Notes under the pieces: model-generated | What the model was told of the DNA's origin: nothing | Database searches by the model: none | The model's input: only the letters and a program-made list of their open reading frames with translations | Position numbers and translations under genes: made by a program | Shown: piece by piece, positions 56,472 through 57,740 of the stretch | Layout: every line of letters begins with the position of its first letter | Position numbering within the stretch: position 1 is the first letter of the stretch | DNA from: an uncultured delta proteobacterium | GTDB lineage: Bacteria; Desulfobacterota; Binatia; Binatales; Binataceae | Length of the DNA stretch: 64,000 nt | Reading direction: 5' to 3' | Assembly: GCA_963733715.1 (NCBI GenBank) | Contig: CAVTEN010000020.1 | Coordinates: forward strand, 215,979 to 279,978

Positions 56472-56587
56472 GAATTTCGGGAGAGCGACTGTGTTGGCAG
56501 TCAAGGTAAGCGGGTTGCCCACAGGGTCCACAGGCTGTGGGGTCCAGGGAAGGACCCCGCCTGTGGACTTGTGGACAACCCGGTTAG

Positions 56588-57532
56588 CTAGACGGTGATT
56601 GCGCATGGAGGCCTCCAGGGCGAGTTGGTTTTGAGCATCGCGTTGAGGATGACCAGCAGTTTGCGCATGGCTGCGATGATGGCGACCTTGGCCGGTTTAC
56701 CTGCCGCCCGCAGCCGGCGATAAAAGCTGCGCAACACCGGGTTACAGCGAATCGCGGACAGGGTGGCCATATATAGGGCGCTGCGCACCTCGGCGCGGCC
56801 GCCGAAGATCGAGCTGCGCCCGCGCCACTCACCGCTTTGATGGTCATACGGTGCGACTCCGACCAGCGCCGCGATCTGCTTGGGCCCGAGCAGACCCAGC
56901 TCGGGCAACCGGCTGACCAGGATCGCGCCGGTCACCGGCCCCAGTCCCGGCACCTGTTCGAGTTGCGCGCAGCGGTGCGCCAGGCGCGGATTGTCCCGCA
57001 GGCGTTGTTCGATCTGATGGTCGACCGCACCGAGCTCGCGCTCCAGCGCCCGGACGATGCGCTTGACGCTGGACCGCACTGAGCGCGGCGCCTGCTGCAC
57101 CCGGGTGCGCTCCGCCGCCAGCATCTTGACTACTTGGCGCCGGCGCACGGCCAGGGCTTTGAGTTCTTCATCCGCCGCCTCCGGCGGAGGCAACGGTTCG
57201 GGCTGCATGCGCAAGCCAAACTCACATAACCCGCGCGCATCGAGCTGATCGGTTTTAGCCAATTGCCGATTGGCTTGGGCGAAGTGATAGGCATCGCGCG
57301 GATTGATTAGCGCGGTCGGCACCCCGGCCTCCCACAGCGCCAGATAGGCTGGGCTCTCATATCCACCCGAGGCTTCCAGCACTACCAGCGCGGCGCCGCT
57401 TTGCCGCAGCCGCACCAGCAGCTCGCCGATCCCGTCTTCGTTGTTCGCAACGCTGAAGCCGCCGCCACTGGACAACGCTACTTCCAGCGTGCGCTTGCTC
57501 ACATCGATTCCAACCACCACCGCTGCTTCCAT
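56588..57532 (-). CDS. IS110 DEDD transposase/bridge recombinase
   Basis: VGIDVSK, LEASG, KTDQLDA (RuvC-like DEDD); PGLGPVT, VGVAP..QSG, AAMRKLL. GGAGG RBS before the ATG at 57532. Confidence 0.95.
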   Translation of the reverse strand: MEAAVVVGIDVSKRTLEVALSSGGGFSVANNEDGIGELLVRLRQSGAALVVLEASGGYESPAYLALWEAGVPTALINPRDAYHFAQANRQLAKTDQLDARGLCEFGLRMQPEPLPPPEAADEELKALAVRRRQVVKMLAAERTRVQQAPRSVRSSVKRIVRALERELGAVDHQIEQRLRDNPRLAHRCAQLEQVPGLGPVTGAILVSRLPELGLLGPKQIAALVGVAPYDHQSGEWRGRSSIFGGRAEVRSALYMATLSAIRCNPVLRSFYRRLRAAGKPAKVAIIAAMRKLLVILNAMLKTNSPWRPPCAITV

Positions 57533-57544
57533 CCTACCGCCTCC

Positions 57545-57722
57545 ACTGGTTCCGGCGCCGCCCATCCTTGCGCGATTCGGGCTCTGCGCCGTGCGCCGCC
57601 CCAGCGACTGTTCGGGCTCCTGGCCGGAGTTATGGGCGCGGCGACCACGCTCTCCCACGGTCTCTATCGACCCAGGCCGAATCGGCCTGCCGCGCCCTCG
57701 TCCTACTCCATCTTCGGACTCT
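57545..57722 (-). ncRNA. Predicted bridge RNA in the IS110 left end
   Basis: Two stem/internal-loop modules; contains ACAGTCGCT (equal to left donor plus core) and GGGAGAG (complement of core plus right target flank). Confidence 0.8.
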
Positions 57723-57740
57723 GACCGCAACATACAAGAG

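What the first reader, a model, noticed from the sequence alone, without database searches (positions are those of the whole stretch)
56484..57738. IS110 element with a readable bridge RNA: RNA-guided recombination system
Seen on the minus strand: the element ends give the donor junction ACAGTCG-CT-TGTAT. The ~200-nt non-coding left end forms two stem/internal-loop modules. One holds ACAGTCGCT (57603-57611, 9/9 to left donor plus core) and GCAAG (57567-57571, pairing CTTGT with one wobble). The other, closed by GGGCGCGGC/GCCGCGCCC, holds ATTCGGCCT (57674-57682) and GGGAGAG (57650-57656, exact complement of core plus right flank CTCTCCC). Established: this is the IS621 bridge-RNA layout. Inference: an intact new ortholog with its own donor and target specificity.
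Basis: partly seen in the sequence, partly recalled or inferred. Interest (0 to 1): 0.85.

Follow-up and report, generated by a model that had tools for sequence, protein, structure and literature searches.

The report
IS110 insertion sequence with bridge RNA
This is an intact mobile element of the known IS110/IS621 type, from an uncultured soil bacterium, whose own small RNA appears to spell out where it cuts itself out and where it inserts; it is a new example of a mechanism described in 2024, not a new mechanism.

Summary
The minus strand of 56484-57738 holds a 1,251-bp IS110-group element flanked by a duplicated CT core. It has a 204-nt non-coding left end, a 314-aa DEDD/Tnp recombinase and a 102-nt right end. 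The recombinase matches IS621 at E 1.7e-35, and all five catalytic residues align.

The genome holds 5 copies, 3 of them identical. Unoccupied copies of the target (TCGGC-CT-CTCCC, inside a REP-like repeat) fix the element ends exactly.

The left end folds into two stem/internal-loop/stem modules, supported by compensatory changes in 8 relatives. The four guide segments sit where the IS621 bridge RNA has them. In 20,000 shuffles, all four occurred together 0 times.

Across 29 parsed copies from relatives at 40-97% identity:
- The right target guide changes together with the right flank (4 variants, 28 of 29 perfect).
- The left donor guide changes together with the element end (2 variants, 29 of 29).

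Handshake bases and a promoter formed only at the circle junction are also present.

One twist: the window's own copy matches only the right target arm, so it looks like a natural "half-match" insertion.

Verdict: a new member of a known kind. RNA expression and activity are untested.

The parts
57737..57738 (-). Left copy of the CT core (target/donor crossover dinucleotide)
   Evidence: Empty sites carry a single CT between GTCGGC and CTCCC. Occupied sites carry CT on both sides of the element.
57533..57736 (-). Left end (LE), 204 nt, non-coding: the bridge RNA gene
   Evidence: It is identical in all 5 copies. It has two conserved stem/internal-loop modules. The frame is open, but substitutions fall evenly on codon positions, e.g. 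28/28/32, 25/26/31 and 28/30/31, so it is not coding.
57729..57734 (-). -10-like hexamer TATGTT, the left-end half of the junction promoter
   Evidence: Read. Joined to the right end through the core, it lies 17 nt from TTGACT. The linear element has no sigma-70-like site: 0 found in 56400-57800.
57634..57697 (-). Target-binding loop module: outer stem GGGCGCGGC.GGCC / GGTC.GCCGCGCCC, apex hairpin GGTC-GATAGA-GACC (57672-57659)
   Evidence: Helices 1 and 2 are 100% paired in 8 sequences. Four pairs have compensatory changes, 3 of them among the 4 pairs of the apex hairpin.
57674..57682 (-). Left target guide (LTG) ATTCGGC+CU, same sense as the target top strand
   Evidence: TCGGC-CT equals the left flank plus core of 4 of 5 copies in this genome and of L031, L035 and L036. 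This is the most variable stretch of the left end among relatives.
57650..57656 (-). Right target guide (RTG) GGGAGAG, complementary to CT+CTCCC
   Evidence: It matches the right flank 7/7 in 5 of 5 copies here. Across relatives it is 7/7 in 28 of 29 parsed copies, with 4 different RTG/flank pairs.
57648..57649 (-). Handshake guide of the target loop (CG)
   Evidence: It lies directly 3' of the RTG, as positions 81-82 do in IS621. It is complementary to donor positions 6-7 (CG of ACAGTCG) and not to target positions 6-7 (GC). This is a sequence reading.
57551..57628 (-). Donor-binding loop module: basal stem TCCGGC/GCCGGA, stem GCCC/GGGC (57617-57614 with 57563-57560), inner stem GGGC/GCCC (57601-57598 with 57582-57579)
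   Evidence: Helices 3-5: 3 pairs have compensatory changes and the inner stem is invariant. The basal stem is my reading and was not counted.
57603..57611 (-). Left donor guide (LDG) ACAGTCG+CU
   Evidence: 9/9 identical to the right-end terminus plus core (56492-56484). Relatives whose end is ACAGCCG have the guide ACAGCCG (5 copies). The 7 LD bases match in 29 of 29 copies.
57567..57576 (-). Right donor guide (RDG), split as in IS621: AU (57576-57575), 3 unpaired nt, then GCAAG (57571-57567)
   Evidence: GCAAG pairs with CT+TGT with one G-T wobble. AU can pair with A13-T14 of TGTAT. In L052 the end is TGTAA and the RNA reads UU (my reading).
57565..57566 (-). Handshake guide of the donor loop (GA)
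   Evidence: The first base, G, is complementary to target position 7 (C of TCGGC), as G166 is in IS621. The second base does not pair.
56588..57532 (-). Recombinase gene, 314 aa (start ATG 57532, GGAGG at 57544-57540)
   Evidence: Pfam DEDD_Tnp_IS110 4.9e-23 and Transposase_20 6.1e-19. NCBIfam 'IS110 family RNA-guided transposase', 227 bits against a cut-off of 140. IS621 chain 8wt6_A at E 1.7e-35 over residues 7-306.
56510..56584 (-). Long conserved hairpin in the right end, with repeated GTCCACA motifs
   Evidence: RNAalifold on 7 sequences gives about 29 pairs in the hairpin, 5 pairs with compensatory changes. In the L032 lineage a different hairpin sits at the same place. Its function is unknown.
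56499..56504 (-). -35-like hexamer TTGACT, the right-end half of the junction promoter
   Evidence: It lies 13 nt from the core. A TTGAYT, TTGACA or TTGCAA hexamer sits at the same 13-nt distance in all relatives I read.
56486..56492 (-). Left donor (LD) ACAGTCG, the last 7 bases of the element
56484..56485 (-). Right copy of the CT core
56479..56483 (-). Right target flank CTCCC (not part of the element)
   Evidence: It is present at 5 of 5 copies and is contiguous with the core at empty sites.
57739..57745 (-). Left target flank of the window copy, TCGGGCT: does not fit the LTG in register
   Evidence: Against ATTCGGC there is 1 identity and 1 wobble in 7 positions. Shifted by 2 nt it reads TCGG-G-CT.
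56432..56472 (-). Copy of a second dispersed palindromic repeat next to the insertion (context only)
   Evidence: 40 further matches in the genome. It also appears in contigs of all four runs laid.

Best explanation
This is an IS110-group insertion sequence of the IS621 kind.

Proposed cycle:
1. The element excises as a circle. This joins the right end to the left end through one CT.
2. The join builds a promoter: TTGACT in the right end, 17 nt, then TATGTT in the left end.
3. The promoter transcribes a bridge RNA of about 180 nt from the left end, and probably the recombinase gene after it.
4. The first internal loop of the RNA reads the target: ATTCGGC-CU pairs with the bottom strand, and GGGAGAG pairs with the top strand, of ..TCGGC-CT-CTCCC.
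5. The second loop reads the donor junction ACAGTCG-CT-TGTAT.
6. A tetramer of the DEDD/Ser recombinase exchanges strands at the CT core. It is helped by two handshake bases (CG) that pair with the donor after exchange.

The preferred target lies in a REP-like repeat, directly 3' of a GC-rich hairpin.

Shown here:
- The element ends and empty sites.
- The multiple near-identical copies.
- The protein family and catalytic residues.
- The conserved two-loop structure.
- The guide matches and their co-variation with flanks and ends.

Inferred by homology to IS621:
- Circle formation.
- Transcription from the junction.
- RNA-guided strand exchange.
For: - **Ends and copies.** There are 5 copies, 3 identical over 1,255 bp. 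The CT core is duplicated. Ten unoccupied exact TCGGCCTCTCCC sites exist, 8 of them in one repeat family by my reading of their flanks.
- **Recent mobility.** In a soil DNA run, a contig carries the element next to 30 nt identical to a site that is empty in this genome (X3 loose end, C23:142275).
- **Simple insertion.** The two genes flanking the window copy are neighbours, without the element, in all 7 same-genus loci examined.
- **Protein.** Pfam, NCBIfam and IS621 matches. D10, E53, D95, D98 and S234 align with IS621 D11, E60, D102, D105 and S241 (alignment, residue roles).
- **RNA structure.** 27 pairs are 98.6% paired in 8 sequences, against 34-47% when the partners are slid. Seven pairs have changes on both sides. 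0 of 500 shuffles reach the covariation score.
- **Guides in this element.** All four guides occur together in 0 of 20,000 shuffles.
- **Guides in relatives.**
  - RTG/right flank: GGGAGAG/CTCCC, GAGAGAG/CTCTC, AGCCCAG/GGGCT, CACGAAG/TCGTG. 28 of 29 are 7/7.
  - LDG/LD: ACAGTCG or ACAGCCG, 29 of 29.
  - LTG/left flank: TCGGC, TTGCC and CAACC groups. The 5 bases next to the core plus the core are exact in 12 of 29.
- **Layout against IS621 numbering.**
  - LTG start to handshake guide: 33 nt here, 31 in IS621.
  - LTG start to LDG start: 71 against 73.
  - LDG start to donor-loop handshake guide: 45 against 43.
- **Promoter.** There is no promoter-like site in the linear element. The two hexamers keep their places in relatives.
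Against: - No RNA has been shown. RNA-library contigs cover parts of the element (X17 56614-56870; X18 56517-56917 and 57195-57738, the latter with 35 differences, so from a relative). Such libraries can hold DNA, and contigs cannot show starts or strands.
- No circle junction was seen in the four runs laid.
- The single-sequence fold is not better than shuffles (z -1.54; 13 of 200 shuffles fold as well).
- No Rfam family for such an RNA matched.
- The left target arm fits poorly at 15 of 29 natural sites, each with two or more non-Watson-Crick positions among the 5 next to the core. These include the window copy.
- The 8 aligned RNAs come from about three lineages, so the compensatory changes are few independent events.
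- One of the 5 copies has a frameshift. That may be an assembly error.
Confidence: 0.9

Rival explanations
1. The internal copies of the end sequences are sub-terminal protein-binding repeats, and the left end is only a structured 5' leader of the recombinase mRNA. On this view target choice is made by the protein, not by an RNA.
For: The donor-type repeats (ACAGTCGCT inside the left end and at the right end) alone could be read as sub-terminal repeats. No RNA was shown.
Against: The target flanks are not part of the element. Yet the 3' side of loop 1 follows them through four different sequences (28 of 29 perfect), and the 5' side follows three left-flank groups. The protein is a close structural relative of a recombinase for which the RNA was shown to be required. 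The handshake bases fit the donor, as in IS621.
Confidence: 0.03
2. The element is a readable but no longer active relic. The copies arose by past activity or by duplication of the repeats that hold them.
For: One copy is frameshifted and another has 2 substitutions. No circle junction was seen.
Against: Three copies are identical over 1,255 bp, with intact ORF, guides and catalytic residues. The outer flanks differ between copies. Another soil sample has a copy at a site that is empty here.
Confidence: 0.06
3. The 381-aa ORF 56588-57733 is real: the left end encodes an N-terminal extension of the recombinase rather than an RNA.
For: The frame is open through the whole left end in the window and in 8 of 9 relatives checked. 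The terminal ATG is in frame in most of them by my arithmetic on the coordinates.
Against: Substitutions fall evenly on the three codon positions. From that ATG, L047 has 3 stops, and L052 has a stop 7 codons upstream of the start. The Pfam domain starts at residue 7 of the short form, and IS621 starts at the same motif. The DNA is GC-rich, so open frames are common. Paired columns change together, as expected for RNA.
Confidence: 0.02

Closest known systems
IS621 of Escherichia coli (bridge recombinase and 177-nt bridge RNA; Durrant et al. 2024, Hiraizumi et al. 2024)
   Same: - Same protein architecture and catalytic residues (E 1.7e-35).
- CT core.
- RNA encoded in the left end, with the target loop first and the donor loop second.
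- The strandedness of the four guides is the same.
- The right donor guide is split in the same way.
- Handshake bases sit 3' of the RTG and RDG.
- The -35 box lies in the right end.
- Both insert in repeated extragenic palindromes.
- Target positions 6-7 are G and C in both.
   Different: - Only about a third of residues are identical: about 102 of 300 aligned, by my count of the identity line.
- The natural RTG is 7 nt here, against 4 nt in IS621.
- The donor ends in CG instead of A and T at positions 6-7, and the handshake guide is CG instead of AU. That is a compensated difference.
- The target is CGTCGGC-CT-CTCCC, against ATCAGGC-CT-AC.
- The right end is 102 nt and holds a long conserved hairpin.
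- The host is an uncultured, GC-rich soil bacterium.
ISCro4 transposase (PDB 9t56)
   Same: It is the second solved relative, with a similar score (E 5.9e-35).
   Different: Only the protein match was seen here. Nothing about its RNA was compared.
ISPpu10 of Pseudomonas putida (preprint 10.64898/2026.03.19.712850; abstract read)
   Same: The target lies in a repeated intergenic sequence, with a GC-rich stem-loop directly 5' of the paired site. Here the left target arm GTCGGC is the 3' arm of a GC-rich hairpin in the repeat (my reading of the flanks).
   Different: No test here shows that the hairpin matters. The window copy and the CTTCATC sites of a relative lack that hairpin.
IS1111 group / seekRNA elements
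   Same: Same DEDD recombinase family and RNA guidance.
   Different: According to the Durrant 2024 passages, those elements have a right end much longer than the left end and sub-terminal inverted repeats of 7-17 bp. That their RNA is encoded in the right end, after the gene, is my recollection and comes from no call. Here the left end (204 nt) is longer than the right end (102 nt), the RNA precedes the gene, and the inverted repeat flanking the donor is 4 bp (CAAC...GTTG).

Membership tests
IS110 family, IS110 group (IS621-like bridge recombinase system) | Recombinase with an N-terminal DEDD RuvC-like domain and a C-terminal Tnp domain | tested here: met
   PF01548 at 4.9e-23 and PF02371 at 6.1e-19. 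NF033542 at 227 bits against a cut-off of 140. IS621 8wt6_A at E 1.7e-35.
IS110 family, IS110 group (IS621-like bridge recombinase system) | Catalytic D, E, D, D and the Tnp-domain serine (IS621 D11, E60, D102, D105, S241) | tested here: met
   D10, E53, D95, D98 and S234 (followed by G235) stand in the aligned columns. The chain numbering is offset by 2.
IS110 family, IS110 group (IS621-like bridge recombinase system) | No long terminal inverted repeats; a 2-nt core (CT) present once in the empty site and on both sides of the inserted element | tested here: met
   Occupied and empty sites in the same genome.
IS110 family, IS110 group (IS621-like bridge recombinase system) | Non-coding left end longer than the right end, lying upstream of the gene | tested here: met
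   The left end is 204 nt and the right end 102 nt.
IS110 family, IS110 group (IS621-like bridge recombinase system) | Left-end RNA with two stem/internal-loop modules conserved in orthologues | tested here: met
   RNAalifold. Pair counts: 98.6% paired, 7 pairs with compensatory changes, slid controls 34-47%.
IS110 family, IS110 group (IS621-like bridge recombinase system) | Loop 1 matches the target and loop 2 the donor; 5' sides are in top-strand sense (8-9 nt) and 3' sides are complementary to the top strand (4-7 nt) | tested here: met
   against the description.
IS110 family, IS110 group (IS621-like bridge recombinase system) | Guides change together with target flanks and donor ends across orthologues | tested here: met
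   Four RTG/flank pairs, two LDG/LD pairs and three LTG/flank groups. The left arm is exact in only 12 of 29 copies.
IS110 family, IS110 group (IS621-like bridge recombinase system) | Handshake guides that pair with the non-cognate DNA and not with the cognate one | tested here: met
   The target-loop CG fits donor CG (2 of 2). The donor-loop G fits target C7 (1 of 2, as in wild-type IS621). Neither fits its own substrate. This is a sequence reading.
IS110 family, IS110 group (IS621-like bridge recombinase system) | Promoter formed across the RE-LE junction of the circle | tested here: inconclusive
   TTGACT, 17 nt, then TATGTT across the joint. The placement is conserved in relatives, and the linear form has no such site. 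This is a consensus match only; no transcript start was seen.
IS110 family, IS110 group (IS621-like bridge recombinase system) | The RNA is made and is required for recombination; guides are reprogrammable | not testable with these tools
   Only contigs of RNA libraries were available, and these cannot show transcription.
IS110 family, IS110 group (IS621-like bridge recombinase system) | Match to a curated covariance model of bridge RNAs | tested here: inconclusive
   None of the 18 Rfam matches at E up to 10 was a bridge RNA family. The best was sX15, on the other strand and below threshold. The published model of Durrant et al. was not available here.
IS1111 group (seekRNA type) | Right end much longer than the left end, as reported (that the RNA lies in the right end is recalled, not from a call); sub-terminal inverted repeats of 7-17 bp | tested here: not met
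   The left end is longer than the right end. The conserved two-loop RNA precedes the gene. The inverted repeat flanking the donor is 4 bp (criteria).

The most novel reading that the evidence does not exclude
In this clade the 7-nt right target guide plus the core may be the dominant natural determinant of insertion, with the left arm often dispensable.
- 28 of 29 natural sites match the right arm perfectly.
- 15 of 29 have two or more non-Watson-Crick positions among the 5 left-arm bases next to the core.
- The window copy has essentially no left-arm match.

That would be field evidence for the 'half-match' insertion so far shown for IS621 in cell-free reactions and in reanalysed editing data. 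It would also mark this element as a natural long-RTG variant.

The conserved right-end hairpin may be an added functional module, such as a terminator or insulator for the circle transcript.
Probability: 0.35. Interest if true: 0.45.

Novelty: new member of a known kind. Interest (0 to 1): 0.3.

Why it matters
The mechanism is known, so the finding mainly adds a well-documented natural example. It comes with the empty and occupied sites, the relatives and the guide variants needed to read it. It has three modest values.
- It is a compact candidate ortholog for bridge-recombinase engineering. It has a natural 7-nt right target guide and a fully paired handshake, both features reported to improve IS621.
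- Its natural insertion sites give a field view of how strictly each guide arm is obeyed.
- It shows that guide, donor and target of such elements can be read correctly from raw sequence.

Tried and rejected
- **Rfam.** Nothing reached threshold. The best match was sX15 (31.7 bits against a gathering score of 55), on the opposite strand. I checked whether sX15 might be a disguised bridge RNA. The original paper (passages read) places it at 116378-116536 of plasmid pXCV183. In the record the next gene is annotated as an IS3 family transposase. So I dropped it as a chance match between GC-rich helices. The microRNA matches fall on the right-end hairpin and are spurious.
- **Single-sequence folding.** Not informative (z -1.54).
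- **Empty site for the window copy.** None was found in this genome with two joined patterns. None was found in 7 same-genus loci, where the two flanking genes are adjacent but the spacer differs. None was found in the contigs of four runs. So the pre-insertion sequence is inferred only, and the 2-nt-shifted register of the left arm stays unexplained.
- **Circle junction or excision joint.** None was reported in the four runs laid. Contigs drop rare forms, so this says nothing either way. The only joint listed lies in the neighbouring repeat.
- **RNA-library contigs.** They cover parts of the element but not the flanking genes. Because the element is multi-copy and the libraries may hold DNA, I do not count this as expression.
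- **The 381-aa ORF.** Rejected.
- **Rows left out.** L055 (26% identity) and L056 (a fragment) were dropped before the count. L053 was not parsed by my pattern. Read by eye, its donor guide has one mismatch to its end and its right arm is 6/7.
- **Tools and files not available.** Supplementary files of Durrant et al., which list the predicted orthologues, were not open. I therefore cannot say whether this element is already in their set.
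Full report
**What is there.** On the minus strand, 57738 to 56484 reads CT-TGTATG...ACAGTCG-CT. A search of the window's own genome with this stretch found five full-length copies sharing exactly 57738..56479, plus 40 short matches to an unrelated palindromic repeat in the right flank.

Four of the five copies have the left flank ...GAGCGTCGGC, and all five have the right flank CTCCC. The same genome holds unoccupied sites that read ...GAGCGTCGGC-CT-CTCCCC..GGGGCGAGG. 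The exact 12-mer TCGGCCTCTCCC occurs 10 times. By my reading of the flanks, 8 of these lie in one REP-like repeat family. Its left-arm motif occurs 50 times: 8 with the exact site, 7 with one mismatch and 3 occupied.

So the element is TGTATG...ACAGTCG (57736-56486, 1,251 bp), with one CT duplicated and CTCCC belonging to the target.

**Copies.** Three copies, including the window's, are identical over 1,255 bp. One has two substitutions and a 1-nt deletion in the right-end hairpin. One has a substitution and two 1-nt deletions, one of which breaks the reading frame. The left end is identical in all five.

**Protein.** The real gene is 57532-56588 (314 aa), preceded by GGAGG.
- It carries the two Pfam domains of IS110 transposases.
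- It passes the NCBIfam model 'IS110 family RNA-guided transposase' (227 bits, cut-off 140).
- Against solved structures it matches the IS621 recombinase (E 1.7e-35, residues 7-306) and ISCro4. About 102 of 300 aligned residues are identical, by my count of the identity line.
- D10, E53, D95, D98 and S234-G235 stand in the columns of IS621 D11, E60, D102, D105 and S241-G242. Hiraizumi et al. show those residues form the composite active site (passages read).

The longer 381-aa ORF that runs through the left end is open in the window and in 8 of 9 relatives. However, substitutions fall evenly on the three codon positions, and two relatives have stops. I read it as a GC-rich open frame, not a gene.

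**RNA structure.** A scan of one genome per species found 27 related loci, at 97, 93, 74, 58, 53, 50, 46-47 and 40% identity. I aligned eight distinct left ends. RNAalifold gave two modules, each an outer stem, an internal loop and an inner stem.

I counted 27 pairs, leaving out the pairs that RNAalifold drew within the guide segments.
- 98.6% of cells pair, against 34-47% when partners are slid by 1-3 columns.
- Seven pairs show changes on both sides.
- No shuffle of 500 reaches the covariation score.

The sequences come from about three lineages, so the independent events are few. The single-sequence fold is no better than shuffles.

**Guides.** Durrant et al. (passages read) describe the layout. 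Loop 1 reads the target and loop 2 the donor. [quoted passage not shown] Here:
- Loop 1, 5' side: ATTCGGCCT. TCGGC-CT equals the left flank plus core of 4 of 5 copies.
- Loop 1, 3' side: GGGAGAG. This is the complement of CT-CTCCC, matching 5 of 5 copies.
- Loop 2, 5' side: ACAGTCGCT. It is 9/9 identical to the right end plus core.
- Loop 2, 3' side: GCAAG. It pairs with CT-TGT with one wobble.

In 20,000 dinucleotide shuffles of the left end, these occur in 129, 2,259, 4 and 7,229 shuffles respectively, and all together in none.

Spacing follows the IS621 numbering within 2 nt: 33 against 31, 71 against 73, and 45 against 43.

The right donor guide looks split, as in IS621. An AU lies three bases upstream of GCAAG and can pair with the last two bases of TGTAT. 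In L052 the end is TGTAA and the RNA has UU there (my reading).

The two bases after the RTG (CG) are complementary to donor positions 6-7 (CG). The base after the RDG (G) is complementary to target position 7 (C). Neither pairs with its own substrate. This is the handshake rule. Compared with IS621 (donor A, T; guide A, U), it is a compensated change.

**Co-variation with flanks.** I examined 30 copies: 5 from this genome and 25 from relatives. L055 and L056 were dropped beforehand as too distant or fragmentary, and 29 were parsed.
- The RTG and the right flank change together through four pairs: GGGAGAG/CTCCC, GAGAGAG/CTCTC, AGCCCAG/GGGCT and CACGAAG/TCGTG. 28 of 29 are 7/7 and one is 6/7.
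- The seven LD bases equal the guide in 29 of 29, with two variants (ACAGTCG in 24, ACAGCCG in 5). In those five, the guide's second core base is C against T.
- The LTG follows the left flank in three groups (TCGGC, TTGCC, CAACC). The five bases next to the core plus the core are exact in 12 of 29, and two more have one mismatch or wobble.
- Fifteen have two or more non-Watson-Crick positions. Nine of these are the CTTCATC or TTCGATC sites of one genome. The eight CTTCATC sites amount to one wobble and one mismatch; the TTCGATC site (L038) is poorer, with two wobbles and two mismatches among the five.

Because the flanks are outside the element, this co-variation cannot come from sub-terminal protein-binding repeats.

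**The window copy.** Its right arm is perfect, but its left flank TCGGGCT fits the LTG at 1 of 7 positions plus one wobble. It fits better if shifted by 2 nt.

It is a simple insertion. In all 7 same-genus loci examined, the two flanking genes are adjacent without the element. None of them holds the same spacer, so the empty site is not known.

A 2026 preprint (abstract and one section read) shows for IS621 that pairing across the core and one arm can suffice for insertion. The window copy looks like a natural case of that, but I cannot exclude a slipped register in the CTCTCT run.

**Promoter and mobility.** The linear element has no sigma-70-like site (0 found). Across the circle joint, TTGACT (56504-56499) and TATGTT (57734-57729) are 17 nt apart. 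A similar hexamer sits 13 nt from the core in every relative I read. Durrant et al. place the natural -35 box of IS621 in the right end.

In a soil DNA run, a 1,434-nt contig carries the element followed by 30 nt identical to the site that is empty at C23:142275 of this genome. So occupancy differs between populations.

RNA-library contigs cover parts of the element. I do not count that as expression.

**Verdict.** This is a new, apparently active member of the IS621-like bridge recombinase kind, in an uncultured soil bacterium (record titles of the closest relatives). Its preferred target lies in a REP-like repeat. It is not a new mechanism. Transcription, circle formation and RNA dependence are inferred by homology.

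Noticed in passing
window 56510-56584 (minus strand); L031, L042, L044, L047, L051, L053 right ends: A hairpin of about 29 bp with twice-repeated GTCCACA motifs lies between the recombinase stop codon and the -35-like box. It is conserved down to 50% protein identity, with compensatory changes at its base. The 93%-identity lineage (L032 group) has a different hairpin at the same place. It could be a terminator or insulator for the circle transcript; its function is unknown.
   Followed up: partly
window 56432-56472 and about 40 other places in the genome: A second dispersed palindromic repeat (TTCCCCTTCCCTCGAGGGAAGGGGTTAGGGGTTAGG type) lies next to the insertion. It appears at high word depth in contigs of an RNA library (X18, bin 56435-56501, depth 153).
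   Followed up: no
G000 contigs, e.g. C23:142275, C23:50941(-), C25:14277(-), C35:383375: The target repeat family is CCCTCACCCGCC, then a variable GC-rich hairpin, then TCGGC-CT-CTCCC..GGGGCGAGG. Its left-arm motif has 50 copies. Eight carry the exact 12-nt site and are still empty. The left target arm is the 3' arm of the hairpin, which recalls the ISPpu10 target stem-loop.
   Followed up: partly
L033, L034, L037-L041, L048 (one relative genome): Nine of 12 copies of the 93%-identity element sit in another repeat. Eight have the left arm CTTCATC (one wobble and one mismatch to the guide) and one (L038) has TTCGATC, which fits less well. All have the perfect right arm CTCCC, which is the 5' arm of a CTCTCCC..GGGAGAG hairpin.
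   Followed up: partly
G000 C19:8589-9569, C40:10982-12079 and 12629-13726, C26:92077-93123: The genome holds other IS110-family recombinase genes unrelated to this element: one on C19, two in tandem on C40, and a broken one on C26 with a TAG inside. Their RNAs were not examined.
   Followed up: no
window 56588-57733 (minus strand): The frame upstream of the recombinase start is open through the whole left end in the window and in 8 of 9 relatives. The ATG inside the terminal TGTATG is mostly in frame. There is no third-position bias, so it is probably a by-product of GC content.
   Followed up: yes
window 57585-57705 (plus strand): There is a sub-threshold Rfam match to Xanthomonas sRNA sX15, antisense to the bridge RNA. 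In pXCV183, sX15 lies upstream of a gene annotated as an IS3 family transposase, so the match is most likely chance.
   Followed up: yes
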